A program made the translations under genes and the position numbers. DNA of 45,256 nucleotides from Escherichia phage bob, in sequence record NC_073072.1, one strand, 5' to 3'. Below are positions 1,574 through 45,256 of this stretch, in pieces. A model generated the notes under the pieces. The model did not search any database and was not told the origin of the DNA. It saw nothing but the letters and a program-made list of their open reading frames with translations. The stretch's first letter is position 1. The number at the start of each line of letters is the position of its first letter.

Positions 1574-2998
1574 ATGGCACGTTTCCGACGTCGCGAATAT
1601 CAGAAGTTGATAACCGCGTTCATCCTCAAGCATAAGCGATGTAATATATGGGCGACAATGGGATCCGGTAAAACCGGCGCGACAATGTGGGCGCTGAATA
1701 AAATGTTCCAGACTGGCGTCCTGTCCCATCATGAGGACCGCGTACTGGTGCTGGCCCCGCTGCGTGTTGCGTCCGGTACATGGCCCCCGGAGCAGGAGAA
1801 ATGGCGGTTCTCATCCCTGCTGGTCGTAGACGGCACCGGGCCGGAGAAGGACCGTATCGCAGCGCTTGAGAGCGACGCCAACGTGGTTTGTGTTAACTAT
1901 GATGTGGTTGAGTGGTTGGTTGACTATTACGGCGATGCGTGGCCCTTTACGGTCGTTGTTGCCGATGAATCGACTAAGCTGAAAGGCTATCGTAGCAAGC
2001 AGGGGAGCAAGCGCGCCCGCGCACTGGCAGCGATTGCACATAAACACGTCAAGCGCTGGATTAACCTTACCGGCACACCAGCGCCAAACGGGCTAAAAGA
2101 CTTATGGGGTCAGACGTGGTTTGTCGACGGTGGCGAACGCCTCGGCAGTAGCTATAAGGCATTTACCGACCGCTGGTTCATTAGCAAGCCTGTTAAGCCT
2201 GGCAGCTTCACTATGCAGCACGCTCCGCTAAAGAACTCCGAGAAAGAGATACAACAACGTCTGTCAGATGTATCCCTCACCGTTGACGCGGCGGAATACT
2301 TCGGGTGCGACAAGCCAATCTATACGCCGGTTGTTGTGGACCTGCCGAAGAAAGCGCGCAAGATTTATGACCAGTTTGAAAGCGAGCTATTTGCAGAACT
2401 GGAAAGCGGAACAGTGGAAGCGGCGAACGCGGCGTCGAAGACAATTAAGTGCCTTCAGCTTGCATCCGGGGCCGTGTATAAGGTGGACGAAGACGGCGAA
2501 CGGACCGACGAGTGGGTGAAGATTCACGACGCGAAGCTGGACGCGCTGGAAAGTATTGTGGAGGAGTTGAACGGAGCGCCGTTGCTCGTTGCGTATCAGT
2601 ATAAGCATGACCTGGCACGTCTTAAGAAGAAATTTCCGCACGGCGTTGCGTTGGGTAAAGGTAAGCAGGGCAATAAGGATATGGAAGCATGGAACAGGGG
2701 CGAGATCCCCATCATGTTTGCACACCCGGCATCGGCGGGCCACGGCCTTAACTTGCAGGACGGCGGTCATCACCTGGCAATCTTCTCCGACACCTGGAAC
2801 TTTGAGCACTTTTCGCAGATTGTGGAGCGTATCGGGCCGGTTCGACAGATGCAAGCCGGGCACCCCTGTCCGGTATTCGTCTACATTATCCAGGCGCGCG
2901 GGACACTGGACGAATTGGTCGCCGAGCGTCGCGACAGTAAGCGAGACATTCAGGACGACTTGATGGAATACATGAAAGCTAAAAAGGCGCGCAAATGA
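1574..2998 (+). CDS. SNF2/DEAD-like superfamily II DNA helicase
   Basis: Walker A ATMGSGKTGAT, motif II VVVADESTKLK, motif III LTGTPAPNG; 474 aa from ATG 1574. Confidence 0.85.
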   Translation: MARFRRREYQKLITAFILKHKRCNIWATMGSGKTGATMWALNKMFQTGVLSHHEDRVLVLAPLRVASGTWPPEQEKWRFSSLLVVDGTGPEKDRIAALESDANVVCVNYDVVEWLVDYYGDAWPFTVVVADESTKLKGYRSKQGSKRARALAAIAHKHVKRWINLTGTPAPNGLKDLWGQTWFVDGGERLGSSYKAFTDRWFISKPVKPGSFTMQHAPLKNSEKEIQQRLSDVSLTVDAAEYFGCDKPIYTPVVVDLPKKARKIYDQFESELFAELESGTVEAANAASKTIKCLQLASGAVYKVDEDGERTDEWVKIHDAKLDALESIVEELNGAPLLVAYQYKHDLARLKKKFPHGVALGKGKQGNKDMEAWNRGEIPIMFAHPASAGHGLNLQDGGHHLAIFSDTWNFEHFSQIVERIGPVRQMQAGHPCPVFVYIIQARGTLDELVAERRDSKRDIQDDLMEYMKAKKARK

Positions 2999-7141: not shown

Positions 7142-7175
7142 AAAGGGGCCGCATGGCCCCTTCTATTTATTTCTT
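7142..7175. terminator. bidirectional terminator between convergent genes
   Basis: AAAAA-GGGGCC-gcat-GGCCCC-TTCTATTTATTT. Confidence 0.6.
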
Positions 7176-9332
7176 CAACGCCGCGATCTCGGCCTTCAAA
7201 TCCTCCACCTGCTTATTGAGATATTGAACACACCCCATCAAGTCCATTACGATCGGGTTAACGTCGATGGATGGGCGGTCCGTCATCTTCTCCCCGATCT
7301 TGTTGCCGTCTTCGTCGAGAATATCCTCGATCGGGAACTCGTGGTGCTTAACGTACTGCGGCGCAATTAACTCCGCTTCTTCGGCGATAATACCGAAGCG
7401 CTGGCGGGCCTGCTCATCATCCTTATACACGAAGTTAACAAGGCGCTGGCTGTTAATGCGGTCCATAGCTTCGCTTGCGTCCGCATCGGCTATATCTTTC
7501 TTATACTCGCGGCCGGATGTGCCTTGCAGCGCGATAGTCCCCGATGCGGTAGTCGGGAAGTTAAGCATAATTTCGCCGGTACGGTTCCCATCCTTACGTC
7601 GCATAAACAGGCGAAAATATCGAGTGCCGCTCTTTTCTAGTGCCGGTTCGAAGAACGTCCTACCGCCTACGACGTCGTTCGGCACGGTTTCGCCTACGGT
7701 GTAGTACGGTTCGAATGCAAATTGCAGGTAAGACCCGCGGCTTACTGCCAGGCTACCAACGACATCTGACCCTGAACTGTTCACCGTAAACTTGCCCGGC
7801 AAGGTCATCTCGCCTTTGGTGTTAAAGTCGATGCCTGAACTCTGCGCCGTCTCCAGGTTAGTGATCGCCAGGCGGGCGTAAGTCTCACCGTCGATATTCG
7901 CACGGACGCGCAGCTTTGCTTCCGAGTGTAAAGAAGTGCCAACACGATATTCAGACACAATGCTTCCGCCGTCTGCCGTAGTGCCCGCTGGCGGTTTAGT
8001 GGCGTCGCCGTTGATTACCGACCACGATGTGTTAGCGGCAACAAATCCGCCTGACGCTCGAATAACCCACACGCCCATGAAGTTATTCGGGCGCAACTCC
8101 GATACGGTCCGCCCGTAGATCGCGTTTACCTTCGAGGCGTCCATGTTAATGATGCCGTATGATTCCGCGCCGTTACTAACAGTTAGCCCGCCTGGCGATC
8201 GATATTGCGAAGCCGCACCGCCAGCCCCCCGGAACGCGCCACTTGCACCGTTGATAATACTTGCTGACCCGCCGCCGTGTAATTCGATGCGGCCTGTGAT
8301 GTTAGGTGCTCCTGATTCGTAGATATACCCATCGTTGCCACTTTGCCCGCCGTCACCCCGGCAGAACAAGCCGAATATTGACCCAGGCTGAACGCCATTA
8401 CGGTCCGGCACTCGGAAGGTAGTTGTGCCGTCACCCGTAGAATACTTTCCGCGCTGATTTGGGTTTGCCAGCCAGGTCTCGTCACTAATTGGCGACAGCA
8501 TTTGCGCATACGCCCAAAGCTCAGGCCAATCCGCTCGGTTTAACAATTGACCATCGGACACCACTTCGTAAGGTTGAATATACGCGCGGCTGTCCCGTAA
8601 ATGGAAATCACCTACGCCATAGTTCATGACGCCGTTCATTGTAGGGCCGACAGTGCCGGTGTTGATCAGATTCTGCACCCAGCGCTTTGTCGTGGCGTCG
8701 TAGTCACCAACAGGGTCGCCGGCCAGTGGTGTTGCCCCGTCCGGGCGAACGTTAAGCCAGGCTTGCGGTTTGTCGGTGAGTCCCGCCAGGTTGCCTGATT
8801 TTGTTAGCAAGTTATCCGCGTTAACGCTTTGCGCCCACTCCTCGGCCTGATCGCGGAATCCCTGCGCGGCGGATTTCGATGCTTCGGCTTGCGCTGCGAG
8901 GTCGCGCATCTCAACGGGGTCTACGTTCTTAAGCAATTCCGACAGGTATCCCCATGACATTCCCTGCATGACTTGCCCGTTAGGTAACGTCACTGTGATT
9001 TCTTCAGCGTCGCCGAAGATTGCGCGCCAGTTGTTTTCATCTGCGATCATCAAGCGCAACGCTTTCTGCGCCTGTACTGTTACGCCCATCGTTGCCAGCG
9101 ACATGGTATCGCGCTTAACGCCATCCCACGCAAGGCCGGTTGCCGTTGGGCCGTCGAACGGCAACACCAGCGTAAGCGCCGTGTTACTTTCGATTGATGC
9201 GATCGCCACTGTGTAAGGCACTTGTCCTACCACCAGCGTTAAGAAGTCGCCAGCTTTAAACGCGGTAAACGTTGTGCCGACTCCTACTACCGCCGTGCTA
9301 TTGTTCGTTACGGATAGCGTACCCGCTGCCAT
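7167..9332 (-). CDS. tail fibre/tailspike with C-terminal intramolecular chaperone (peptidase S74-like) domain
   Basis: 721 aa; Gly-rich central region; C-terminus ...GTSGREYKKDIADADASEAMDRINSQRLVNFVYKDDEQARQRFGIIAEEAELIAPQYV... fits the self-cleaving chaperone domain pattern; GAGGA RBS. Confidence 0.8.
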   Translation of the reverse strand: MAAGTLSVTNNSTAVVGVGTTFTAFKAGDFLTLVVGQVPYTVAIASIESNTALTLVLPFDGPTATGLAWDGVKRDTMSLATMGVTVQAQKALRLMIADENNWRAIFGDAEEITVTLPNGQVMQGMSWGYLSELLKNVDPVEMRDLAAQAEASKSAAQGFRDQAEEWAQSVNADNLLTKSGNLAGLTDKPQAWLNVRPDGATPLAGDPVGDYDATTKRWVQNLINTGTVGPTMNGVMNYGVGDFHLRDSRAYIQPYEVVSDGQLLNRADWPELWAYAQMLSPISDETWLANPNQRGKYSTGDGTTTFRVPDRNGVQPGSIFGLFCRGDGGQSGNDGYIYESGAPNITGRIELHGGGSASIINGASGAFRGAGGAASQYRSPGGLTVSNGAESYGIINMDASKVNAIYGRTVSELRPNNFMGVWVIRASGGFVAANTSWSVINGDATKPPAGTTADGGSIVSEYRVGTSLHSEAKLRVRANIDGETYARLAITNLETAQSSGIDFNTKGEMTLPGKFTVNSSGSDVVGSLAVSRGSYLQFAFEPYYTVGETVPNDVVGGRTFFEPALEKSGTRYFRLFMRRKDGNRTGEIMLNFPTTASGTIALQGTSGREYKKDIADADASEAMDRINSQRLVNFVYKDDEQARQRFGIIAEEAELIAPQYVKHHEFPIEDILDEDGNKIGEKMTDRPSIDVNPIVMDLMGCVQYLNKQVEDLKAEIAALKK

Positions 9333-9411: not shown

Positions 9412-9630
9412 ATGAAAACTTTAATTATGATTTGTGCGGTTCTTTTGTCCGGTTGTGCCGACATGCCGTCTAAAATCTGCGACGCAACATACATGAATAG
9501 TGGTATGGAGTATTCCGTCCAGGTGTTTGGGGTCGCCGACTTTAGCGGGCATAAAATGCTAAGGGCGGGTTATCCGTTCAACTTCCAGTATGTGTCGGTC
9601 GACCACTTCAAAAGCACCACCTGCGAATAA
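9412..9630 (+). CDS. small outer-membrane-type lipoprotein, candidate receptor-blocking superinfection-exclusion protein (Cor/Llp-like by context)
   Basis: MKTLIMICAVLLSGC: signal peptide with lipobox LSG|C; 72 aa; divergent from tail fibre gene; GGGGA RBS. Confidence 0.65.
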   Translation: MKTLIMICAVLLSGCADMPSKICDATYMNSGMEYSVQVFGVADFSGHKMLRAGYPFNFQYVSVDHFKSTTCE

Positions 9631-25364: not shown

Positions 25365-25467
25365 GCTATCCCCCTGGGATTGTGGCAGAGCAGGCCACCC
25401 GCTCGACTTCACGCTTCTAATATTATCAGCGATAAAAATAATCGCAAAATTCGCTTGCAATCCGCGT

Positions 25468-25492
25468 ATTGGTTGCACTATATTGGTTGCAC
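25468..25492. promoter_or_regulatory. tandem pair of TATTGGTTGCA motifs in a divergent intergenic region
   Basis: Copies at 25468-25478 and 25482-25492, between scaffold gene start (25364) and plus-strand gene at 25514. Confidence 0.5.
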
Positions 25493-25513
25493 ACCAACAA
25501 CGAGGACACAAAA

Positions 25514-26278
25514 ATGAGACTGACAAAAGACATTAAAAACCAGATTCTGGCTAACATCCTGCGCGACCACGAAATCGCGACCGAAGCCAAATCAATCATG
25601 ATGGACTCTCGAAATCTGGCGTACGCCATTACGATGGACTGTATGCCGGAAGGCATTCATTCGTTCGCCGAGCTACGTGAGCGCATTGCAGCAATCGGCG
25701 GTGACCCGTCGCAGATGTACGGCGTCTGTGTGTACACCAACAAGGCGACGTATAGACATGACGCCGACAGCCCATATGGTGTAGGCAGCGTTTACGAAGC
25801 CACTTTCGAAATCAACGCAGGCGGAAACGTCCGTACCGTGTCATTGAGCGGAGACGGACACCGAGTCCGAGTATATCGCGGATACGGGGAGTATAAATAC
25901 ATGAATAAACTGTCTCCCGATCTCGGCGATATTGTGCCTGGGTATGAGGAAATTTTGTTAGCGTCAGTGTGCGAAGTCGATGACGACGGGAAAGCGCTGC
26001 CGATATATATGCCACGCGGTCGTATAGACTACCCGGCGGACCATGATTTCTGTAAGCGCCTGGACCGTAACGACAAGGCCCGCCGTGAGTTGCGTGCTAA
26101 GTATGACGCGTTCAAACTAACTGTTACCGGCGTGCTGGATATGCACAATACCGATAAGAAGCTGATCAAGGCGTGGCCTGAAGTGGAACAGTTCATTCCT
26201 TACCCGGGCAAGCCGAAGTCCACGGCGGTGGCGCTGGACGTGAAGACGTTAAACGAGATTTGCGGTATTCCGCGCTAA
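25514..26278 (+). CDS. hypothetical protein (254 aa) on the opposite strand within the late operon (moron-like)
   Basis: ATG 25514; own upstream motif pair and downstream bidirectional terminator; no recognisable domain. Confidence 0.6.
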   Translation: MRLTKDIKNQILANILRDHEIATEAKSIMMDSRNLAYAITMDCMPEGIHSFAELRERIAAIGGDPSQMYGVCVYTNKATYRHDADSPYGVGSVYEATFEINAGGNVRTVSLSGDGHRVRVYRGYGEYKYMNKLSPDLGDIVPGYEEILLASVCEVDDDGKALPIYMPRGRIDYPADHDFCKRLDRNDKARRELRAKYDAFKLTVTGVLDMHNTDKKLIKAWPEVEQFIPYPGKPKSTAVALDVKTLNEICGIPR

Positions 26279-26283
26279 TAAAA

Positions 26284-26300
26284 GGGGCCATTACGGCCCC
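26284..26300. terminator. bidirectional terminator hairpin
   Basis: GGGGCC-attac-GGCCCC flanked by A/T runs; overlaps 3' end of o-spanin ORF. Confidence 0.5.
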
Positions 26301-26521
26301 CGAATTATTTGCTGCAACTCCAGGACCTGCGCCCTCAGCTTCGCCCCGCATTCCATATTTTTCACGTCAATCATCAAATCTTCGTCGGGGTCCGCGGACG
26401 GGTTATCGAACTTGCACGGCGGTCGCAGTGCCGACTCCGTTAGCGGCATCAACGGCGCTTTGCTTGATCCGCACGCGCTCAGCATCAAAACTGCAATCAG
26501 GACGGTTAGGACGCGTAACAT
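26291..26521 (-). CDS. o-spanin (Rz1-like outer-membrane lipoprotein)
   Basis: MLRVLTVLIAVLMLSAC: lipobox LSA|C; Pro-rich mature part; start embedded out of frame in the i-spanin gene. Confidence 0.6.
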   Translation of the reverse strand: MLRVLTVLIAVLMLSACGSSKAPLMPLTESALRPPCKFDNPSADPDEDLMIDVKNMECGAKLRAQVLELQQIIRGP

Positions 26522-26732
26522 ATTTCACAACCTCTTTCGTGATAGTCCGGTATTCCACATCGCGGGCCTGTTCTGCCTGCACAGCCCCCTCGACAACCTT
26601 AGTTTGCTGCCGTTGGGCTTTCGCTTGCGCTTCTTGCGATGCTCTCGCCACAACGGCAGCGCGGTAGGAATCACCCTGCCAGAATCCTACCACCAGACCG
26701 ATAACCAGTCCGATCGCTGCATATTTAATCAC
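26403..26732 (-). CDS. i-spanin (Rz-like)
   Basis: GTG 26732 with GGGGG RBS; N-terminal TMD IKYAAIGLVIGLVVGFW then Gln/Ala-rich helical region. Confidence 0.55.
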   Translation of the reverse strand: MIKYAAIGLVIGLVVGFWQGDSYRAAVVARASQEAQAKAQRQQTKVVEGAVQAEQARDVEYRTITKEVVKYVTRPNRPDCSFDAERVRIKQSAVDAANGVGTATAVQVR

Positions 26733-27828
26733 GCCATAACCCCCGGTTTTTAAGCTGTGCAATAGTCATCAGTTCGCCAGAATCGGTAAACATCTTCGGC
26801 ACTTTCACGCCGCGCATAATCTGGTCGGCGCGTTGCACTCCATATAACTCCTCCAGGATGTGGCGCGGCTGGCGCTGCACCCAGGAGAAGAAATCAGTCT
26901 GCGCGTCGACCTGCTCACTCAGCAACCGGCCCGCGTCAGCCTTCAATGCCGGACGCTTACCACTGGGCCAATCTTCCATGCCCTTAACTTTCCACGTCTC
27001 CGTAGACCGGCAACAATAATGCAACTTGCCCGGACCAGCGCCATATTGTGACCCAGCCACCACTTTCCCGCCGCGCTTTCCTTTGGTGTTGGGAGTGACG
27101 TCAACAGGATAAAACAGGCGATCGCGTAGCTGGCACATTGGGGAAGTATGAGTGTCCAATGTAGCCAACCATTGGCGACCTTCGAGAATATCGTCATTAG
27201 CTTTCACCATTAATTCGCGGGCAGTCGCCGCATAGTGGTTAACTGCGGACTTAACAACGCTTGAGATTGCCTGCGCACTACGACCGCCGAGAGCGCGCCT
27301 CACGTCCGCGATAATTTCCATAGTCGGCTTGCCCTGGATGAAGCCAGCGCGCACCTGATTACCGATCTGCGTCCTGGTCCACTCAGAGAGTGAGTCAGGC
27401 CATTGCATCATCGTATTACCCTGGAACGGGTTTTTCATAGCCGTCGCTGCGATCTGTGCACCGGTAACAACGCCAACTACTTCAACAGCGGGTACGGCGA
27501 CAGCGGGCTGGATCGCTGCCGTTAGTGTGTCAGCGAGATAATCAGCCTCGGTGTCGGCGAACTCCTGAAGGCTTTCAGCCAGCGCCTTAAACTCGGTGCG
27601 CAGTTCTGTTTTAACGGTCTTGTCGAGTTGCGTTAACAGAGTGGTAAGTGCCTTGTTGTTCATGGACTTTTTGCCATCAAGTAACTCGGTCAGCTTACCC
27701 AGTAACGTGGGCCGGAACTTCTCCCACATAGCCAGCACCCGCCGCGCCTGGTCATTGCTCAGGCGCTGGGTGAAGATGTGACGACGGATCATGCGATCCG
27801 CCATATGTTGATTAATCGTTCTCGCCAT
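26725..27828 (-). CDS. head morphogenesis protein (Mu F / SPP1 gp7-like)
   Basis: 367 aa; ...WLATLDTHTSPMCQ... motif typical of the family; immediately downstream of portal. Confidence 0.75.
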   Translation of the reverse strand: MARTINQHMADRMIRRHIFTQRLSNDQARRVLAMWEKFRPTLLGKLTELLDGKKSMNNKALTTLLTQLDKTVKTELRTEFKALAESLQEFADTEADYLADTLTAAIQPAVAVPAVEVVGVVTGAQIAATAMKNPFQGNTMMQWPDSLSEWTRTQIGNQVRAGFIQGKPTMEIIADVRRALGGRSAQAISSVVKSAVNHYAATARELMVKANDDILEGRQWLATLDTHTSPMCQLRDRLFYPVDVTPNTKGKRGGKVVAGSQYGAGPGKLHYCCRSTETWKVKGMEDWPSGKRPALKADAGRLLSEQVDAQTDFFSWVQRQPRHILEELYGVQRADQIMRGVKVPKMFTDSGELMTIAQLKNRGLWRD

Positions 27829-29332
27829 TGTCCGCTACCTTGTCCGGGTCTTCTTCGGTGGATTCTACCGCATCAGGGGACATTTGAGGCAATGGATTCT
27901 GATTTCGCAATTCGTCTTCCACCTGCTCGACGGTTTGCGAGTCGTCAATGACGCCCTGGGCCATCATCCACTTGATGAAGTCAGCAAGTCGGACCGTACC
28001 AGTTTGCACACCTGCCATCATCGCGGTCATAAGCTGCGCATCAACCGCGATTTCGGTGTAGAACTTGTTCAGCGTTACGCGCTGGTCAGCGGTGTCACCC
28101 GTGAATAGCTGGACGATTTGCAGCGCACGGTTGAAAGCCTTCTCTACGTTACCGGCAATCAGTGACAGGATACTGTTATCAGTCTGCGCGTCGTAGGCCG
28201 CTTCGGTTGCCGTCTTAGGTGCGGTCCCCTTCTCAACCAGGGCCGCGCCAAGTTTAGCCATTTGCAGTTCGCGACGCTCACACAGTGCAACCGACAAGTT
28301 GCGCTCCTCGGCCTGAATCAGTTTAGCGTCCATGTTCTGGCCCAAGATAACGCCCTTAGTCGCACCGAGAGCAATGCCGCCCTTCAGGTTCTTGTCAGCC
28401 CATGATTGAGTCAAGCCAGTTGCCACTAGGGTAGGCTGACCCACGATGTGCGCAATCTCGGCGACGTCCGCTTCGGCGTTGTAGTGCTTAATGTTGATGG
28501 ATGCGATATCCGCCAGCGGAGCGGCGTCAGGCGTTGCGTTGTTGTCCACCGCGCCACACCAGCAAAACGGAAGCTGTGTCAGCGCCTTACCGGCAGCATC
28601 CACCAGCGGCACAAGGTCGGTGCGGGTAAATCCACGCGGCAAGTCCATTTGCACCTCGGATGTGTCCGCGTTATAAAACCAGCGGCGGGCGTGTGCCGCA
28701 CCGTTAATCATGCGAAGCTCGGTCCAAATGGTTACTTCGTGGTTTGCGAAGTCGTCCGGGTCTTCGGTGCTGATTTCGTCCGTTTCCTTCAGCACGATTA
28801 GCGTGTCAACACCGTGGGTCTGCCGCCAGTTGATGATCTGTTCTGCCGTATACAGGCGGATAAGCGGGCGGTGTGTAGCCATCTCGGCGGCGGTCTGTGG
28901 CACTACGTTACCCAGTTCGTCAAAGTTAGCCTGGCGGTCGTAGTCCACCATAAAGCCCGCACGGCCTGATTGCAGAACTTCAGACATAGCACCGCGCAGG
29001 AGTTGCGGCAGCGGCATGCCACTGCCGTCTACATCGTCAATCAGGTCAGCCATCGCCCCGGAAAGGTCCAGACTTACCGGTTTAGCAAAGGCAACGCCTA
29101 ACAGCGCGTTAAGTGTGCGGGCGGTGGCGTTCAGGAATACAGCGCGTTGCTTATACGCCTTATATCGCGCCCGTGCTTTCGGGTCAGTATTGTCGCCACT
29201 GGCAGGATGAGGCAGGTACAAAGGGCCGCACGCCTTCACGGCGCGCTCCCCTGCTACACAATCGCGGATCATCTTCCACTCTGGCGCGATGCGCGCATAG
29301 AGCGGGTGCTGGTTGTCAACGTTAACGGTCAT
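27812..29332 (-). CDS. portal protein
   Basis: 506 aa; between terminase large subunit and MuF-like gene; acidic C-terminus. Confidence 0.7.
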   Translation of the reverse strand: MTVNVDNQHPLYARIAPEWKMIRDCVAGERAVKACGPLYLPHPASGDNTDPKARARYKAYKQRAVFLNATARTLNALLGVAFAKPVSLDLSGAMADLIDDVDGSGMPLPQLLRGAMSEVLQSGRAGFMVDYDRQANFDELGNVVPQTAAEMATHRPLIRLYTAEQIINWRQTHGVDTLIVLKETDEISTEDPDDFANHEVTIWTELRMINGAAHARRWFYNADTSEVQMDLPRGFTRTDLVPLVDAAGKALTQLPFCWCGAVDNNATPDAAPLADIASINIKHYNAEADVAEIAHIVGQPTLVATGLTQSWADKNLKGGIALGATKGVILGQNMDAKLIQAEERNLSVALCERRELQMAKLGAALVEKGTAPKTATEAAYDAQTDNSILSLIAGNVEKAFNRALQIVQLFTGDTADQRVTLNKFYTEIAVDAQLMTAMMAGVQTGTVRLADFIKWMMAQGVIDDSQTVEQVEDELRNQNPLPQMSPDAVESTEEDPDKVADNGEND

Positions 29333-31280: not shown

Positions 31281-31410
31281 GATATAAGCCCTTTTGTTCA
31301 TATGCGCCGACCATCGGCAACATAGGAGACGGCCCTGCCATCTAAGTGGGATTATAACAGGCACAAAAAAGCCCACCAAATCGGCAGGCTGGGAGGATTA
31401 CTGGCTGCCG

Positions 31411-32553
31411 TTACTTCAACATTTCCGGGCTAATGGTTAAGCGCGCTACTTCGCCGTAGTTGGCGCTGTAGGTAATGACGTTTGCGCTGCGACCGGACAT
31501 CCAACCGCCACGACTGGCGTAGGCGTCTTTCGCTGCGAGCGTCCGGTGCTGTTCAACAATCATGTTGCGGGATTCTACAATCTTCTGGTGGTGCAAGTGG
31601 CCTATGTGCGCGTAGCTGTACTCACTGGATCCGAAAGCCTGTCTGAATTTAGAAATCATGACGGTTTCGATAGCGTCAAAGCGCGCTTTGTGCCCGTGGT
31701 GGAAGAATAGCGTGGTCTTGCCGTGCTGCACCATTTTGTAGACGTCCGGGGACGTATCCACATCGACGCGCGGCTCGTTCTCGTACAGAGTATTGAACAT
31801 CTCAGCCAGCCAAATCATACCCGACTCGTCATGATTTCCCTGGACGATTAGCAGTTTGACTTTGTGGTGTTTTTGCAGCGCCAGTTCGACGACGTTGCGC
31901 ACCATGCGAATCATGTAGCGGACCAACTTCTGGTATCGGGTATCTGCGTCCAGGATATGACCACTGGCTGGGGTGACGGCATCGAGGCTATCAAAATGCG
32001 CCATATCACCGAGGATATTGATTACGGCAGTTCCTGCGTCTGGTGCGCGGGCGAAGGCTTCGACAAACCAGCGGTAAAACAGGTCTTCGGCAATCGCCAT
32101 ATCCCAGTCTTCGCCAGTCTCCTCGCCCCAGGCCAACATGCCCAGGTGGAAGTCGGACACGGTATACAGGTTGAGCAAGTCGAGCGCCTTGATCGGTACT
32201 GGCGGGGCGTTTACTGGCGCTGCCGGTGTGATTTCGCTGTTCATACCCTCGACAACAGCGCGCATGGCTTCGAGTTGGCGCTCTTTGTCCTGCTCAGTGA
32301 TGACCCACGACATGACCTCTTCGCCATTGCCGCGCACCAGGGCCGATACGCGCTTAACCCCAAAGCCATCTGCAACTCGCTTACGGATCACGGCATCATT
32401 ACCGTGACCAATTCCCTTTTTCGATAGGCGGGCTTTGCGCATATAGACATTTCGAAGTGCAATGCCGTATTTCTTTGCAATCTCTTTAACCGTAGTCCCT
32501 GCCTGAATTTCTGCGATCAATTGCTCATCGGTAATTTTAGTTTGCGGGTGCAT
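31411..32553 (-). CDS. calcineurin-like metallophosphoesterase with N-terminal HTH domain
   Basis: Motifs ILGDMAHFD, VQGNHDE, HHGH, GHLHH; N-terminal TVKEIAKKYGIALRNVY helix-turn-helix. Confidence 0.75.
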   Translation of the reverse strand: MHPQTKITDEQLIAEIQAGTTVKEIAKKYGIALRNVYMRKARLSKKGIGHGNDAVIRKRVADGFGVKRVSALVRGNGEEVMSWVITEQDKERQLEAMRAVVEGMNSEITPAAPVNAPPVPIKALDLLNLYTVSDFHLGMLAWGEETGEDWDMAIAEDLFYRWFVEAFARAPDAGTAVINILGDMAHFDSLDAVTPASGHILDADTRYQKLVRYMIRMVRNVVELALQKHHKVKLLIVQGNHDESGMIWLAEMFNTLYENEPRVDVDTSPDVYKMVQHGKTTLFFHHGHKARFDAIETVMISKFRQAFGSSEYSYAHIGHLHHQKIVESRNMIVEQHRTLAAKDAYASRGGWMSGRSANVITYSANYGEVARLTISPEMLK

Positions 32554-32759: not shown

Positions 32760-32790
32760 AAAAAGCCCGGTATTATCCGGGCTTGATTGT
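32760..32790 (-). terminator. rho-independent terminator ending the lysis cassette
   Basis: On minus strand AGCCCGG-ataata-CCGGGCT followed by TTTTATT. Confidence 0.55.
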
Positions 32791-32974: not shown

Positions 32975-33466
32975 TTATGCAGCGTTACGTCCGATTCGCT
33001 CGGCAACGTCCCACTGCTTGCCATCAAACAACGCCTGTCTGCCGATTGCACGGCGTACCAGACCCTTCAGCACTTCCCCGCCTTGCTTGCGGAACTGCGG
33101 CAGAGTAGCACGGACCTTCGCCCAGTCCCCCAGTCGCACCGCATCGTCGAAATCATTCGCGACGTCATCCGGTACGATCGGACCAGGACCGGCGTTGATT
33201 ACCAGGTCCACCAGCGCGTCGAATTGCGCCTGGTTAATACTCTTATGCGCGTATTTGTTCACCCAGTCCTCGGCATACGCCACATCGCGCTTGAGTAGCT
33301 CCAGCGCTTCCGCGCGGGTAATGCTTCGAGGCGGGTTAGTGCCGGTGTGCCCATAACCCCAGGTGTACAGGCCGCGGGCCTGCTCTTTCTTAGTCGCGAA
33401 ATACGGCACCGGGCTGAAAGCCTCCCATGCTGCCGTAAATCTTAGACCGTTGTCACTGAATCGCAT
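32975..33466 (-). CDS. endolysin (phage lysozyme, GH24-like)
   Basis: 163 aa; ...WEAFSPVPYF...GLYTWGYGHTG... resembles lysozyme catalytic region; follows two membrane proteins. Confidence 0.75.
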   Translation of the reverse strand: MRFSDNGLRFTAAWEAFSPVPYFATKKEQARGLYTWGYGHTGTNPPRSITRAEALELLKRDVAYAEDWVNKYAHKSINQAQFDALVDLVINAGPGPIVPDDVANDFDDAVRLGDWAKVRATLPQFRKQGGEVLKGLVRRAIGRQALFDGKQWDVAERIGRNAA

Positions 33467-33698
33467 GTTTTACCCCATTCAAAACAGCATTACGCAGTGT
33501 GCGCAATGCAAACAGCCAGATTAACGCGGTCCAGGTGGTATCTGATACGTCTCCTGTTTGCAACAATCCGATAACGCAGACCATCGCCGTTAGCAGATAT
33601 AACACCCGGCCTAAAATGCCATCCTGGACGGACGGCGCATACACGTTAAACAGGGACGAAGCCCCTATGATAACAAACAACAGGACGGAGATAATCAT
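33453..33698 (-). CDS. holin/antiholin-like membrane protein
   Basis: 81 aa with 2-3 hydrophobic helices; overlaps endolysin start. Confidence 0.5.
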   Translation of the reverse strand: MIISVLLFVIIGASSLFNVYAPSVQDGILGRVLYLLTAMVCVIGLLQTGDVSDTTWTALIWLFALRTLRNAVLNGVKHAIQ

Positions 33699-33985
33699 TT
33701 TGCGCCCCCCGGAAGTCGGAACGACTCAATAGTCTCCCTGATCCGGGCGGCTATTGGCATCCAGAAGATGGCAGTTACGAAGCCCAACCCGGCAACAGTG
33801 CGCTCGCCAGATAAGCCAGCCCACTCGGCAATAGCTGGCGCACCAAATATGGCACACAAGAAGCCGACCACGATATATAAAACGAAGTTTAGCGGCCCTT
33901 TCGTAGCCTCGCCATGAATGCGAGCGCCAACGAAGCCCCCCGCGAGACACGCGAGGGCGAATAGCCACTCGTTTAGCTTATCCAT
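33695..33985 (-). CDS. holin-like membrane protein
   Basis: 96 aa, multiple TMDs (LFALACLAGGFVGA; FVLYIVVGFLCAIFGAPAI). Confidence 0.55.
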   Translation of the reverse strand: MDKLNEWLFALACLAGGFVGARIHGEATKGPLNFVLYIVVGFLCAIFGAPAIAEWAGLSGERTVAGLGFVTAIFWMPIAARIRETIESFRLPGGAK

Positions 33986-34037
33986 AAAAAAGTCCCAGTA
34001 AGTTTTATCTCACTGGGACTATATCACGCTTGCATAA

Positions 34038-34325
34038 TTAATCGAAAATAGACCACTTGCCGACGCCTTTCCACTCCCATCCACTCGACCGGACGGCCTC
34101 GAATGTTCGCCCGCCTATCATATCCCGATACCACAGCCACCACATGCGCAACCTGGTCGGGTGCTCCGTGATCCCGCGGCGCTTGTATACCTCGAACGTC
34201 ATGCGGGTAATACTGGCGGCTTCCACTGCAGGCCATACGACGAACATCAGGATGCCCAACAGCACCGCGGTAAGCAGGCATAGCCCGCAGATCAAACCAA
34301 ACCAATAAATCACATCGTGTAGCAT
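34038..34325 (-). CDS. membrane protein (95 aa) upstream of holins
   Basis: ATG 34325 with GGAAGGGG RBS; TMD VIYWFGLICGLCLLTAVLLGILMFVVW. Confidence 0.45.
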   Translation of the reverse strand: MLHDVIYWFGLICGLCLLTAVLLGILMFVVWPAVEAASITRMTFEVYKRRGITEHPTRLRMWWLWYRDMIGGRTFEAVRSSGWEWKGVGKWSIFD

Positions 34326-34446
34326 CGAATTGCCCCTTCCGGTTTGCCAATATGGCGCGCCCATGCACGCGCCACGAAGTAATTGCGAAACACCCGACCG
34401 CCTATCTCAAAGCGGTTGTGCATGAGCATATCACGGATAGACGCAC

Positions 34447-40199: not shown

Positions 40200-40377
40200 T
40201 GAAATTCTTCGTCATGGCAACATGCCACGAATTAAACGATCACACTTCTTTTATTGTTGAAAACACCAACGCAAGCAATTGCTTTGTGGACGCGCAAAAT
40301 GAAGTTAAGCGCCGAGTCGAAAAAGCGGGCCTGGCTAATGTGAAATATGTAATTGTCCAGTTTACACGGGTGGAATA
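40199..40377 (+). CDS. small hypothetical protein (58 aa)
   Basis: Tightly packed between two genes with overlapping stop/start codons; below track cutoff. Confidence 0.4.
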
Positions 40378-41775
40378 ATGGCGATTAAACCAAAACGTAA
40401 AACGCAATCCGGTAGCAATACGGAACACTCATTACTCGGGCCATCCGGTGCTAAAAAATGGATGGGTTGCCCTGCCGCCCTGGTGGTAGAAAAAGATATC
40501 CCGAACGAATCCGGGCAAGCGGCGATTAATGGTACGAGTATGCACACCGTATCTGAAGTCGTGCTCAACCGCATTATCGCCGGTGAGAAGCTGATAACCG
40601 CGAAGACGTACAAAGGGTGTTACGTCGAGAACGAAGGTAAGGGGCCGGTAAAGGCGCACCCGAAAGCACCGAAAGGCGGCGTGCTGGTCAACGACGACAT
40701 GGTGAAACAGTGCGACGCATACATAGACCACTGGCGACCGCTCCTCGAAGTGGCGGAGTTTGTTCAGCTTGAGATGCGCGCCGATCTTACCCGCGTCCTA
40801 CACTCTGGCTTCGAGATCGACGGCAACCGGGTTAAGACGTTCGGTACTGCCGATATGGTCATGGTCATGAAGAAGACCGACGGCACGTACATGCTGATTG
40901 TTGGCGACCTGAAGACGGGACGGCATAAGGTCGAGGCGAAAGAAAACAAACAACTTATGTTGTACGCGCTCGGCCTGCTGCGCAAGCTGCAAACCATGTA
41001 CGACATTACGACCGTGCGCCTGGTCATCTTCCAGCCGTATTGCGGCGGGGCGTCAGAGTGGGATATCTCAGTGGAAGCGCTGGAGATATTCGCGAAGTTT
41101 GCGGCCAAGCGTGCTATCGCCGCGCTCGATGCATACGCCCGTGGCAAGAAGGGACTGACCCGCGCTGACTTCCGACCCAGCGTTGATGCGTGCCAGTGGT
41201 GTCGATTTGCGGACCAGTGTAGTCCCCGCGCTAAGGCTGCAATCGACACGATGGCCCCACCAACGGCAACAGACGAAGACCTGGCGGACGAAGCACTGAA
41301 GCCAACCGACTGCGAAGCCCGCAAAGCAGCACGACGTGCGAAGCGAGGCAAGAAAGAAGCGGCCCCCGGCGCTATGAGCGCGGCGGAACTGCGCAAGGCA
41401 TATGAAGGTCTTGACGCAATGCGCCAGCACATCAAGGCTATCGAGTACGCGGTATTCAAGGCGGTCATGGCGGGAGATGGCGAATCGCTGGGCCTCAAGA
41501 TGGTTGCCGGTAAGGAAGGGATTCGCAAGTGGGCAGACGAAAGCGAAGTGATTGAAATCTTCACGAAGGCCAGGATCAAGCGCGATGTGATGTACAAAGA
41601 AACATTGCTCAGTCCTACGGATGCCGAAAAGGTACTGAAGGACGAGAAGCCGAAAGTATGGGCGAAGCTGTGTGATAAAATCACGCGCGCACCGGCAAAA
41701 CCGGTATTAGCACCAATCGACGACCCGCGCCCTGCGTGGTCTGAAGCTACTGACGAGGACTTAAGCAATGAATAA
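40378..41775 (+). CDS. PD-(D/E)xK exonuclease, Cas4/RecB-like (DUF2800-type)
   Basis: 465 aa; N-terminus LLGPSGAKKWMGCPAAL...GTSMH; C-terminal Cys cluster CQWCRFADQC typical of Cas4-like nucleases. Confidence 0.7.
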   Translation: MAIKPKRKTQSGSNTEHSLLGPSGAKKWMGCPAALVVEKDIPNESGQAAINGTSMHTVSEVVLNRIIAGEKLITAKTYKGCYVENEGKGPVKAHPKAPKGGVLVNDDMVKQCDAYIDHWRPLLEVAEFVQLEMRADLTRVLHSGFEIDGNRVKTFGTADMVMVMKKTDGTYMLIVGDLKTGRHKVEAKENKQLMLYALGLLRKLQTMYDITTVRLVIFQPYCGGASEWDISVEALEIFAKFAAKRAIAALDAYARGKKGLTRADFRPSVDACQWCRFADQCSPRAKAAIDTMAPPTATDEDLADEALKPTDCEARKAARRAKRGKKEAAPGAMSAAELRKAYEGLDAMRQHIKAIEYAVFKAVMAGDGESLGLKMVAGKEGIRKWADESEVIEIFTKARIKRDVMYKETLLSPTDAEKVLKDEKPKVWAKLCDKITRAPAKPVLAPIDDPRPAWSEATDEDLSNE

Positions 41776-43113: not shown

Positions 43114-45256
43114 AAGACTTCGAACGCCTGTTTCTCGATACCGAGACATTTAGCGGGGTGGACCTGAAGAAAGTTGGGGCGTACGCCTACGCAGAGCACC
43201 CAACCACCGAGATTATGATTTGCACATACGCCATCGACGAGGGCCGCGTGCAGACATGGGATGCCACTGAATCCCCAACAATGCCGCGTGAACTGCGCAA
43301 GGCGCTTCGCCAGGTATCCCGCAAGAAAGCAAAAATCGTGATGGCTAACGGCCTCCTGTTTGACCGCCTGGTTATCCGTGAGAAGTGGGGCATCGACCTG
43401 CCGGTAAGCCAGATCGAAGACACCATGATTATGGCCTTTCGCCACGCGCTGCCCGGTAGCCTAGATATGCAGTGCCAGGTGCTGGGCGTTGACGCAGAGC
43501 ACGCGAAAGATAAGGCAGGCAAGGCGCTGATTAAACGATTCTGTAAGCCCACCCCTAAGACCTACAAAATCCGCCGCTACACACGCGAGACGCACCCCGA
43601 AGAATGGGCCAAATTCTTGCGCTATGCCGCGCTGGATATTGTTGCCATGCGTGAAGTCTACTGGCGCATACCGGACTGGGGTAATACTCAGAAGGAAGAT
43701 GAAATCCTGCTCATCGACCAGTTGATTAACGACCGCGGCTTCTACGTTGACGTTGATCTGGCGAACGCCGCGATCAAAGCGGTGCAGGCGCATAAGGAAG
43801 AATTGAAGGAAGAAGCCTGGGAGCGATTTGGTGGTAAACTGACAGGCAATGACTTCCTGCCAATCCTGCGTGATATCGCCCCGGCGTTCACAATCCACAA
43901 CGCGCAGAAATCCACACTTAACGACCTGCTTGAAGACCCGGACTTCCCCGACGAAGGCAAAGCGCTTATCGAAATGCGCCTCGGAGCGTCATCAACGGCA
44001 TCGACTAAGTACAATCCGCTCGTTAACGGCCTATCCGCAGATGGTCGCCGCCGTGGGTGTCTTCAGTATGGCGGCGCAAAGCGCACGCTACGCTGGGCCG
44101 GTAAAGGCTTCCAGCCTCAAAACCTGGCACGCGGCGAGTATAGCGACGACCACGAAGGGAAGATTAAGCGCCGCGAAGGCGAGAGCGACGTCTCGTTTTG
44201 GGTCCGGTCGCACATGCTCACCAACGGCATCAACTCCCTGTTACGCGGGACCGCACACTGGGCGTATGACATATCGAAGCTGACTGCCTCGACCGTTCGC
44301 GGGTGCATTATCCCAGCTAAGGGTAAGAAGTTTGTCGTCGCGGACTACTCCAACGTGGAAGGGCGCGGCCTTGCCTGGATCGCTGGCGAGAAAACCGCGC
44401 TAATGGTGTTTAAGGCCGGACGCGATATCTATTGTGAGACCGCCGGTAAGATGTTCGGCCTGGACCCGGACTACATTAAAGCCAACCGCAAGGACTTACG
44501 CCAGATCGGTAAGGCGTGCGAATTGGGACTGGGCTATGGTGGCGGCGTGGCAGCGTTCTTGCAGTTCGCTAAAAACCTGGGCCTCGACCTTTACACTATG
44601 GCGGACGTGATGAAGGGCACGTTCCCGGATCACATTTGGGCGGCGGCGAAACGCGGCTATGAGTACGCCCGCATTAACGAAGCGAAACGCCCACCGAAGC
44701 CTGGCAAGAAGGACGAGCGACCGACTTACATACTGCCGAAAAACGTATGGCTTACGTGTGATGCGATTAAACGCATGTGGCGCGAGGCTCACCCGAAGAC
44801 GGTAGCCTTTTGGGCCGAGCTTGAGGACGCGGTGTTGTGTGCAATCCGCAATCCTGGCAAAGCGTACTGGGCTGGCGCGAACGTTCGCCCGGATGGTAAG
44901 AAAGCGCTCAAGATAGTCCGCACGAAGGCGAAGCATGACCCAACCTTCGACGAGGAACGCGACGACCCGAACGCCGCGGGGTGGTGGTTGAAAATTGAGT
45001 TGCCGTCGGGGCGTATTATGAGTTATCCAGGCATTGCGCTGTCTGTCACTACCGAGATTGACGAAGACACCGGCAAGAAGCGCACCAGCACACGCATTAA
45101 ATATCAGGGCGAGAATCAGACGACGCGCCAGTGGGGATTCCAGTATACCTACGGCGGCAAACTGACGGAGAACATCGTGCAGGCGTTGTGTCGCGATATT
45201 CTCGCATGGTCTATGCCTGGCGTTGAAGCTGCGGGCTATGAAATCGTTCTATCGGT
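43110..45256 (+). CDS. DNA polymerase family A with 3'-5' exonuclease domain, N-terminal ~715 codons (open at window end, continues at 1..145)
   Basis: ATG 43110 with GAGGA RBS; exo motif LFLDTETFS; ...RQIGKACELGLGYGGG... motif B-like; absent from the ORF track because it has no stop within the window. Confidence 0.9.
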   Translation, partial: MKDFERLFLDTETFSGVDLKKVGAYAYAEHPTTEIMICTYAIDEGRVQTWDATESPTMPRELRKALRQVSRKKAKIVMANGLLFDRLVIREKWGIDLPVSQIEDTMIMAFRHALPGSLDMQCQVLGVDAEHAKDKAGKALIKRFCKPTPKTYKIRRYTRETHPEEWAKFLRYAALDIVAMREVYWRIPDWGNTQKEDEILLIDQLINDRGFYVDVDLANAAIKAVQAHKEELKEEAWERFGGKLTGNDFLPILRDIAPAFTIHNAQKSTLNDLLEDPDFPDEGKALIEMRLGASSTASTKYNPLVNGLSADGRRRGCLQYGGAKRTLRWAGKGFQPQNLARGEYSDDHEGKIKRREGESDVSFWVRSHMLTNGINSLLRGTAHWAYDISKLTASTVRGCIIPAKGKKFVVADYSNVEGRGLAWIAGEKTALMVFKAGRDIYCETAGKMFGLDPDYIKANRKDLRQIGKACELGLGYGGGVAAFLQFAKNLGLDLYTMADVMKGTFPDHIWAAAKRGYEYARINEAKRPPKPGKKDERPTYILPKNVWLTCDAIKRMWREAHPKTVAFWAELEDAVLCAIRNPGKAYWAGANVRPDGKKALKIVRTKAKHDPTFDEERDDPNAAGWWLKIELPSGRIMSYPGIALSVTTEIDEDTGKKRTSTRIKYQGENQTTRQWGFQYTYGGKLTENIVQALCRDILAWSMPGVEAAGYEIVLS

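What the first reader, a model, noticed from the sequence alone, without database searches (positions are those of the whole stretch)
26291..26732. Overlapped spanin pair located 6 kb away from the holin-endolysin cassette
An Rz-like i-spanin (N-terminal TMD plus Gln/Ala-rich helix) with an embedded out-of-frame Rz1-like lipoprotein (lipobox LSA|C, Pro-rich) sits between the MuF-like and scaffold genes. The holins and endolysin are at 32975-34325, separated by the terminase, portal and metallophosphatase genes. Split lysis modules are uncommon and suggest independent acquisition or regulation of the spanins.
Basis: partly seen in the sequence, partly recalled or inferred. Interest (0 to 1): 0.45.

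Follow-up and report, generated by a model that had tools for sequence, protein, structure and literature searches.

The report
Known spanin pair of a Dhillonvirus
The two overlapping genes are the ordinary, already catalogued outer-membrane-breaking "spanin" pair of an HK578-like (Dhillonvirus) coliphage, and their position away from the holin and endolysin genes is an old, conserved and already published feature of this phage lineage.

Summary
On the minus strand an i-spanin (26403..26732, GTG start, 109 aa, N-terminal membrane helix) overlaps by 119 nt an out-of-frame o-spanin (26291..26521, 76 aa, lipobox LSA|C, Cys17). The o-spanin runs 112 nt past the i-spanin stop, so the pair is "overlapped", as the title says, and not "embedded", as the reason says.

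The window is a near-complete Dhillonvirus genome, 96% identical to phage vB_EcoD_Opt212 over 25400-27900. The same genes are annotated i-spanin/o-spanin in several GenBank records. SpaninDB (Kongari 2018) already places HK578, JL1, EP23 and SSL-2009a in the "Jersey" overlapped spanin family.

The split from the holin-holin-endolysin block (32975..33985, about 6.2 kb away) is real. It recurs in all 156 matching Dhillonvirus-type records, in Jerseyvirus and, for the spanin slot, in Kagunavirus. It has been stated in print for the Guernseyvirinae-like coliphage Schulenberg.

The spanins are about as diverged from their Jerseyvirus counterparts (42-49% aa) as the flanking terminase, portal, MuF, scaffold, holin and endolysin genes (24-49%). 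That argues for vertical co-inheritance and against independent acquisition. Separate transcription is plausible from terminator-like hairpins but is only inferred.

Verdict: real, ordinary, already known.

The parts
26403..26732 (-). i-spanin gene (Rz-like inner-membrane subunit), 109 aa, GTG start overlapping the MuF stop by 8 nt
   Evidence: ORF and start context. phrog_2536 'Rz-like spanin' E=7e-35. N-terminal TMD. Conserved motif EVVKYVTRPxRxxCxFD with invariant Cys80 across 8 phages. Annotated i-spanin in GeorgBuechner. A low-confidence AF2 model gives a long helix 5-72, a linker, then helix 84-97.
26291..26521 (-). o-spanin gene (Rz1-like outer-membrane lipoprotein), 76 aa, reading frame offset by 1 from the i-spanin, overlapping its last 119 nt and extending 112 nt beyond
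   Evidence: Lipobox LSA|C with Cys17 and Gly at +2. phrog_5672 E=1e-26 and phrog_1267 E=6e-13. Invariant C17, C36 and C58. Annotated o-spanin in Opt212 and GeorgBuechner. AF2 gives a signal helix, a disordered Pro-rich stretch and a C-terminal helix 53-73, at low confidence.
26283..26301 (-). Terminator-like GC hairpin plus T-run. The o-spanin stop codon sits in its loop. The same palindrome also reads as a weaker terminator for the convergent Nmad5 gene on the + strand.
   Evidence: Pattern scan. Conserved in six Dhillonvirus sequences. Function is inferred, not shown.
26725..27828 (-). MuF-like head morphogenesis gene immediately upstream; its stop overlaps the i-spanin start
   Evidence: phrog_241 E=3e-116; sequence.
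33695..33985 (-). Holin, 96 aa (phrog_2359)
   Evidence: TMDs; annotated holin in Envy.
33453..33698 (-). Second holin or antiholin, 81 aa (phrog_2508)
   Evidence: TMDs; annotated holin in Envy.
32975..33466 (-). Endolysin, 163 aa, soluble lysozyme with no N-terminal hydrophobic segment
   Evidence: PF00959 E=4e-21; phrog_7; no TMD.

Best explanation
The pair is the phage's only two-component spanin system. It belongs to the 'Jersey' overlapped spanin family and carries out the last step of lysis.

Inferred mechanism, by analogy with lambda Rz/Rz1 and other tested spanins:
1. The i-spanin inserts in the inner membrane through its N-terminal helix and projects a helical domain into the periplasm.
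2. The o-spanin is lipidated at Cys17 and sorted to the outer membrane.
3. The two bind through their periplasmic domains and form disulfide-linked complexes that cross the periplasm through the peptidoglycan mesh.
4. Once the holins release the endolysin and the wall is degraded, the complexes are free to move and collapse. They fuse or disrupt the two membranes and progeny are released.

Spanins are held in check by the peptidoglycan and not by their own timing, so they need not sit next to, or be co-transcribed with, the holin. Here they are the last genes of the terS-terL-portal-MuF late block, probably translationally coupled to MuF, and are followed at once by a terminator-like hairpin. 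This layout was inherited vertically in the lineage that includes Dhillonvirus and Guernseyvirinae.
For: Shown here:
- Topology signals of both proteins.
- Overlapped gene architecture.
- Strong PHROG spanin-family hits.
- i-spanin 88% and o-spanin 91% identical to those of EP23 and SSL-2009a respectively, both listed in SpaninDB's Jersey family.
- Homologues in about 650-675 phage records, many annotated as spanins.
- Both frames, the lipobox and three periplasmic Cys conserved down to 18% (o-spanin) and 28% (i-spanin) identity.
- No other TMD/lipobox spanin candidate in the window. The ORF after the endolysin has neither signal.
- Same slot in Jerseyvirus and Kagunavirus.
- Divergence comparable to the flanking genes.
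- The split stated in print for Schulenberg.

Inferred: the membrane-fusion mechanism and restraint by peptidoglycan (established knowledge of lambda Rz/Rz1; background in PMC6139136), the transcription units, and translational coupling to MuF (8-nt overlap).
Against: - I found no experimental test of any Jersey-family spanin. Function rests on topology, architecture and family assignment.
- No Pfam Rz (PF03245) or Rz1 (PF06085) match at E<=0.1, and the NCBIfam P2_Rz1 hit is far below cut-off (E=0.09).
- The AF2 models are low confidence (pLDDT 56 and 62), so the helical periplasmic architecture is only weakly supported.
- The N-terminal cytoplasmic stub before the TMD is very short (M-I-K) if the GTG start is used.
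- Terminator and promoter calls are not enriched over shuffles overall (17 found against 12.2 +/- 3.2 expected).
Confidence: 0.93

Rival explanations
1. The spanin pair was acquired independently of the holin-endolysin genes by horizontal transfer into the head-morphogenesis module. The split therefore reflects a mosaic origin.
For: Spanin pairs can move as units. Klebsiella phage ZX4 has a homologous pair (i-spanin 32% identical) directly after an endolysin and a holin, in a different genomic context. The slot next to the spanins does accept insertions: Nmad5 in Dhillonvirus and an extra reverse-strand gene in EP23.
Against: The same slot (MuF ... spanins - scaffold) is occupied in Dhillonvirus, Jerseyvirus, Kagunavirus and Serratia phage Tsm2. 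Spanin divergence from Jerseyvirus (42-49%) matches that of terL (40%), portal (30%), MuF (24%), scaffold (36%), the holins (26-35%) and the endolysin (49%). Any acquisition would therefore predate the common ancestor of these groups and says nothing specific about this phage.
Confidence: 0.05
2. The two small envelope proteins are not lysis proteins. They would serve another envelope role, such as superinfection exclusion or membrane anchoring of head assembly, which would explain their place in the morphogenesis operon.
For: No member of this family has been tested experimentally as far as I found. The location is inside the structural gene block. There is no Pfam Rz/Rz1 match.
Against: The phage already has a Cor-type exclusion lipoprotein at 9412..9630. 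Without this pair the genome has no spanin candidate at all, although it infects a Gram-negative host and carries a canonical holin/endolysin set. The paired TMD protein and out-of-frame OM lipoprotein, with conserved periplasmic cysteines, is the signature used to define spanins (PMC6139136).
Confidence: 0.02

Closest known systems
SpaninDB 'Jersey' overlapped two-component spanin family (Kongari et al. 2018, PMC6139136), which already lists HK578, JL1, EP23, SSL-2009a, SO-1, EK99P-1, Jersey, SETP3 and K1G
   Same: Same sequence family: i-spanin 88% identical to EP23's and o-spanin 91% to SSL-2009a's, and 42-49% to Jerseyvirus. Same overlapped architecture, same conserved cysteines, and in Jerseyvirus and Kagunavirus the same position between the MuF and scaffold genes.
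   Different: Nothing of substance. Within Dhillonvirus the i-spanin C-terminus is 102 or 109 aa, and this window has the 109-aa form. Dhillonvirus lacks the Hoc-like gene that separates MuF from the spanins in Jerseyvirus and Kagunavirus, and it has an inverted Nmad5 gene after the spanins.
Coliphage Schulenberg (Guernseyvirinae-like), genome announcement PMC6763661
   Same: [quoted passage not shown] That is the same observation as this finding.
   Different: A different phage group. I did not fetch or compare its sequence.
Lambda Rz/Rz1, the prototype two-component spanin
   Same: Same component types and presumed mechanism: a type II inner-membrane protein with a helical periplasmic domain, plus a small Pro-containing outer-membrane lipoprotein encoded out of frame within or over its 3' end, with periplasmic cysteines.
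   Different: No detectable sequence-family membership (no PF03245 or PF06085 hit). Overlapped rather than embedded. Not adjacent to the holin and endolysin. The i-spanin is shorter than I recall lambda Rz to be (109 aa against about 153 aa, from memory). The o-spanin has a predicted C-terminal helix (low confidence).
T4 pseT.3/pseT.2 spanins
   Same: Spanin genes not located near the holin (t) and endolysin (e), so it is a known precedent for an unlinked lysis gene set. Its o-spanin also has a predicted C-terminal helix (PMC6139136).
   Different: The T4 genes are 'separated', not overlapped, and I saw no sequence relationship. In T4 the holin and endolysin are also unlinked from each other, whereas here they form a compact block.

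Membership tests
Two-component spanin (functional class; criteria of Kongari et al. 2018) | i-spanin: small protein with a single N-terminal transmembrane domain | tested here: met
   Hydrophobic segment at residues 2-18, KD 1.64 over 19 residues and 2.91 over 11. No other TMD. An N-terminal hydrophobic segment is visible in all 8 aligned homologues but was not scored in them.
Two-component spanin (functional class; criteria of Kongari et al. 2018) | i-spanin periplasmic domain predominantly alpha-helical, with two helices and a linker | tested here: inconclusive
   A single-sequence AF2 model gives helix 5-72, a linker at 73-83 and helix 84-97, but with mean pLDDT 56.
Two-component spanin (functional class; criteria of Kongari et al. 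2018) | o-spanin: signal peptidase II signal with lipobox and Cys, and no Asp at +2 (outer-membrane sorting) | tested here: met
   MLRVLTVLIAVLMLSA|CG matches the PROSITE-type rule. The lipobox Cys is invariant in 8 homologues. LipoP and SignalP were not available.
Two-component spanin (functional class; criteria of Kongari et al. 2018) | o-spanin gene starts inside the i-spanin gene in another frame (embedded or overlapped) or follows it (separated) | tested here: met
   Out of frame (offset 1), 119-nt overlap, extends 112 nt beyond the i-spanin stop, so overlapped. The same holds in all 11 loci examined.
Two-component spanin (functional class; criteria of Kongari et al. 2018) | Periplasmic cysteines available for intermolecular disulfides | tested here: met
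   i-spanin C80 and o-spanin C36 and C58 are invariant across 8 phages. Disulfide formation itself was not tested.
Two-component spanin (functional class; criteria of Kongari et al. 2018) | Required for outer-membrane disruption; complements Rz/Rz1 defects | not testable with these tools
   Needs genetics. I found no published test of a Jersey-family member.
SpaninDB 'Jersey' family / PHROG 2536 (i-spanin), 5672 and 1267 (o-spanin) | Significant sequence similarity to family members | tested here: met
   phrog_2536 E=7e-35, phrog_5672 E=1e-26, phrog_1267 E=6e-13. The i-spanin is 88% identical to EP23's and the o-spanin 91% to SSL-2009a's; 42-49% to Jerseyvirus Shelanagig. Family lists are in PMC6139136.
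Lambda Rz (Pfam PF03245) / Rz1 (PF06085) / P2 LysC (NCBIfam NF038368) | Profile match above the curated cut-off | tested here: not met
   No Pfam hit at E<=0.1 for either protein. P2_Rz1 scored 12.9 bits against a cut-off of 27.
Classical contiguous lysis cassette (holin-endolysin-spanin) | Spanin genes adjacent to the endolysin or holin | tested here: not met
   The i-spanin start (26732) lies about 6.2 kb from the endolysin end (32975), with the exonuclease, terS, terL, portal and MuF genes between. Adjacency is not a defining feature of spanins.

The most novel reading that the evidence does not exclude
The conserved placement may be functional and not a historical accident. The pair is the last cistron set of the terminase-portal-MuF block, its start overlaps the MuF stop, and its own stop codon sits in the loop of a terminator hairpin. 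This could tie spanin dosage to head-assembly gene expression and insulate it from holin/endolysin transcription. That would be a regulatory logic for the final lysis step not described for lambda-type cassettes.
Probability: 0.12. Interest if true: 0.3.

Novelty: already known. Interest (0 to 1): 0.08.

Why it matters
It matters little beyond correct annotation. Many GenBank records of this genus still label one or both genes 'hypothetical protein', or call a truncated o-spanin from an internal Met, for example the 52-aa version in Envy. That is the annotation problem Kongari et al. quantified. The case is a clean reminder that spanins need not be linked to the holin and endolysin. Searches limited to the lysis cassette will miss them and wrongly score such phages as spanin-less.

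Tried and rejected
- Pfam and NCBIfam scans for Rz/Rz1 families gave nothing above threshold. I therefore do not claim lambda Rz/Rz1 family membership.
- A profile search of the i-spanin alignment against PDB sequences gave only chance hits, E>=0.08 to ribosomal proteins. No solved relative exists.
- Single-sequence AF2 of both proteins gave low confidence, usable only as a weak secondary-structure hint.
- I looked for extra nucleotide conservation in the dual-coding overlap among six Dhillonvirus sequences. Variable columns were 33% in the overlap against 34% in each single-coding part, so there is no signal. The likely reason is that the i-spanin C-terminal tail is itself variable.
- I looked for a second spanin or u-spanin candidate near the endolysin or elsewhere. 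There is none. The 55-aa ORF after the endolysin has no TMD or lipobox. The other lipobox matches are short ORFs at 7367..7486, 40362..40574, 43187..43300 and 44088..44213 that I judge to be chance, most lying within or antisense to longer ORFs.
- The longer TTG-start version of the i-spanin (to 26762) was rejected as the likely start. It would overlap MuF by 38 nt, and the annotated relatives use the GTG.
- The review by Cahill and Young 2019 (PMC6733033) is not held in the library.

Full report
**What is there.** The interval 26291-26732 holds two ORFs on the minus strand.

- The upstream ORF is 26403..26732. It starts at a GTG whose first bases overlap the stop of the preceding MuF-like head-morphogenesis gene (GTGATTAA, an 8-nt overlap), and it encodes 109 aa. 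A longer TTG-start version reaches 26762, but annotated relatives use the GTG.
- This protein begins with a hydrophobic segment, IKYAAIGLVIGLVVGFW. The segment is followed by an Ala/Val/Gln-rich domain, a conserved motif EVVKYVTRPNRPDCSFD and a single Cys (C80).
- The second ORF is 26291..26521. It has an ATG start preceded by AAGAGG and encodes 76 aa. It starts inside the first ORF in another reading frame (offset 1), shares 119 nt with it and continues 112 nt past its stop.
- Its N-terminus, MLRVLTVLIAVLMLSA|CG, is a textbook lipoprotein signal with Gly at +2. The 60-aa mature part has 7 prolines and two further cysteines (C36, C58).

By the definitions in Kongari et al. 2018 the architecture is 'overlapped', as the title says, and not 'embedded', as the reason says.

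**What the window is.** The region 25400-27900 is 96% identical to Escherichia phage vB_EcoD_Opt212 and 92-95% identical to many other Dhillonvirus (HK578-like) coliphages. In all, 156 phage records match. The 45.3-kb window is essentially one such genome. Several records already annotate these two genes as i-spanin and o-spanin or as Rz-like spanins: GeorgBuechner of the BASEL collection, Envy, Gluttony, Opt212 and SSL-2009a. Others call them hypothetical or use a truncated o-spanin.

**Family evidence.**
- PHROG profiles give phrog_2536 'Rz-like spanin' at E=7e-35 for the i-spanin. For the o-spanin they give phrog_5672 at E=1e-26 and phrog_1267 at E=6e-13.
- Pfam has no hit for lambda-type Rz or Rz1, and NCBIfam gives only a sub-threshold P2 LysC match. 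The pair is thus a spanin by class and by PHROG/SpaninDB family, but not a detectable member of the lambda Rz/Rz1 sequence families.
- Kongari et al. 2018 (PMC6139136) list HK578, JL1, EP23, SSL-2009a, SO-1 and EK99P-1 in the 'Jersey' overlapped family, for both i- and o-spanins. The window's i-spanin is 88% identical to EP23's and its o-spanin 91% to SSL-2009a's.
- tblastn finds homologues of the o-spanin in 649 phage records and of the i-spanin in 675. They are mainly Salmonella Jerseyvirus, coliphage Dhillonvirus and Kagunavirus, plus Serratia and Klebsiella phages.

**More than chance.** I extracted both reading frames from eleven loci and aligned eight representatives. Identity to the window's proteins falls to 18% for the o-spanin and 28% for the i-spanin. 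Even so, both frames remain open, the o-spanin always starts inside the i-spanin, and the lipobox Cys, two further o-spanin cysteines and the single i-spanin cysteine are invariant. This fits the rule that two-component spanins carry periplasmic cysteines for intermolecular disulfides (PMC6139136).

A window-wide lipobox scan found only one other credible lipoprotein gene, a Cor exclusion protein at 9412..9630. It found no alternative spanin or u-spanin candidate. The 55-aa ORF after the endolysin has no membrane signal.

Single-sequence AlphaFold models are low confidence (pLDDT 56 and 62). They show the expected pattern: TMD plus a long helix, a linker and a second helix for the i-spanin, and a signal helix, a disordered Pro-containing stretch and a C-terminal helix for the o-spanin.

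**The split from the rest of the lysis genes.** The holins are at 33695..33985 (phrog_2359) and 33453..33698 (phrog_2508). The soluble lysozyme-type endolysin is at 32975..33466 (PF00959). Between it and the spanins lie a small ORF, an HTH-metallophosphatase exonuclease, terS, terL, portal and MuF, all on the minus strand. The gap is about 6.2 kb.

A hairpin sets it off from the holins.

Terminator-like hairpins with T-runs lie after the lysis block (32784..32763), before terS (31390..31370) and at the o-spanin stop (26301..26283). The last one is conserved in six Dhillonvirus sequences and holds the stop codon in its loop. From this I infer that the spanins are the last cistrons of the terminase-portal-MuF transcription unit and are not co-transcribed with the holins. 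This is an inference from pattern matches that are not enriched over shuffles overall.

**Is the split unusual, or evidence of independent acquisition?** It is not specific to this phage.
- All 156 matching records hold the 8.2-kb stretch from the spanins to the holins. 94 hold it as one piece. In the few others I looked at (EK99P-1, EP23, Opt212, Haito_Bas83), the match stops at the start of the record, so those records are simply linearised within the stretch.
- Jerseyvirus Shelanagig has holin and endolysin at 39.6-40.4 kb, then terS-terL-portal-MuF, and the spanins at 6.0-6.5 kb directly before the scaffold gene.
- Kagunavirus K1G and phiEc3, and Serratia phage Tsm2, have the spanins in the same MuF-to-scaffold slot.
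- Jerseyvirus SeF1 is reported with the same PHROGs for the spanins (2536, 5672) and the holins (2359, 2508), with widely separated gene numbers (PMC9409062).
- T4 is the textbook precedent for unlinked spanins (PMC6139136).

Amino-acid identity between this window and Shelanagig:

| Gene | Identity |
|---|---|
| i-spanin | 42% |
| o-spanin | 49% |
| terL | 40% |
| portal | 30% |
| MuF | 24% |
| scaffold | 36% |
| holins | 26% and 35% |
| endolysin | 49% |

The spanins are as old in this lineage as their neighbours. That argues for vertical co-inheritance.

One point favours mobility. Klebsiella phage ZX4 has a homologous pair (i-spanin 32% identical) directly after an endolysin and a holin. 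So the family occurs in both linked and unlinked contexts, but any transfer would be ancient.

**Mechanism.** By analogy with lambda Rz/Rz1 (established knowledge; background in PMC6139136), the steps are as follows.
1. The i-spanin is anchored in the inner membrane.
2. The o-spanin is lipidated at Cys17 and sent to the outer membrane.
3. The two form disulfide-stabilised complexes across the periplasm, held in place by the peptidoglycan.
4. After holin triggering and endolysin action, the complexes bring the two membranes together and disrupt the outer membrane.

Activity is gated by wall degradation, so the genes need only be expressed late, not next to the holin. Everything after the topology signals is inferred. 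I found no experimental test of a Jersey-family spanin.

**Verdict.** It is ordinary and already catalogued. The 'independent acquisition' reading is not supported. 'Separate regulation' is plausible but untested and of modest interest.

Noticed in passing
window 9412..9630 (+): A 72-aa lipoprotein (MKTLIMICAVLLSG|C...) matches NCBIfam NF047972 'phage exclusion lipoprotein Cor' at E=2e-17 (cut-off passed). It lies just upstream of the end of the large minus-strand ORF 7167..9332, whose function I did not check. It is the only other credible lipobox gene in the window.
   Followed up: partly
window 25514..26278 (+): An Nmad5 (nucleotide modification associated domain 5, PF18757, E=4.5e-53) gene lies on the opposite strand between the spanins and the scaffold gene, convergent with the spanins. 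Jerseyvirus and Kagunavirus have no gene in this slot. EP23 carries a further reverse-strand insert here, annotated 'DNA polymerase III beta subunit'. The slot looks like an insertion hot spot.
   Followed up: partly
window 26283..26301 (both strands): GC hairpin GGGGCC-GTAATGG-CCCC followed by TTTT. The o-spanin stop codon sits in the loop and the last codons (R-G-P) form the 5' arm. It is conserved in six Dhillonvirus genomes. It also reads as a weaker terminator for the convergent Nmad5 gene.
   Followed up: partly
window 31411..32553 (-): The HTH plus metallophosphatase exonuclease (phrog_704) is 75% aa identical to its Jerseyvirus and Kagunavirus homologues, whereas every other compared gene is 24-49%. 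In those phages it sits elsewhere, on the reverse strand in the tail region. This suggests a much more recent exchange of this one gene.
   Followed up: no
window 34038..34364 (-): A 108-aa ORF with one strong TMD (phrog_2531, unknown function) lies just upstream of the holins, separated from them by a 12-bp-stem hairpin with a T-run (34020..33991). Its role (antiholin, other membrane protein) is open.
   Followed up: no
window 26403..26425 and loci L001, L002, L006, L009, L011: The i-spanin C-terminus is polymorphic within Dhillonvirus. It is 109 aa (…GVGTATAVQVR) in this window and EP23, and 102 aa (…RVGL or …GISN) in GeorgBuechner, Envy, JLBYU37 and LM40P1. The overlap with the o-spanin is correspondingly about 98 or 119 nt.
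   Followed up: partly
locus L008 (Klebsiella phage ZX4, NC_054654.1) 1820..2957: Endolysin, holin, i-spanin and an unannotated overlapped o-spanin are contiguous. The spanins are distant homologues of the window's pair, with the Cys pattern conserved. The same spanin family thus also occurs in a classical linked cassette.
   Followed up: partly
phage records MG065648.1 (Campylobacter phage A144) and the Acinetobacter and Sodalis records: Records labelled with unrelated hosts match this Dhillonvirus DNA in the megablast searches (the A144 record at 92% identity over 272 nt at its record end). They may be contamination or mislabelled records.
   Followed up: no
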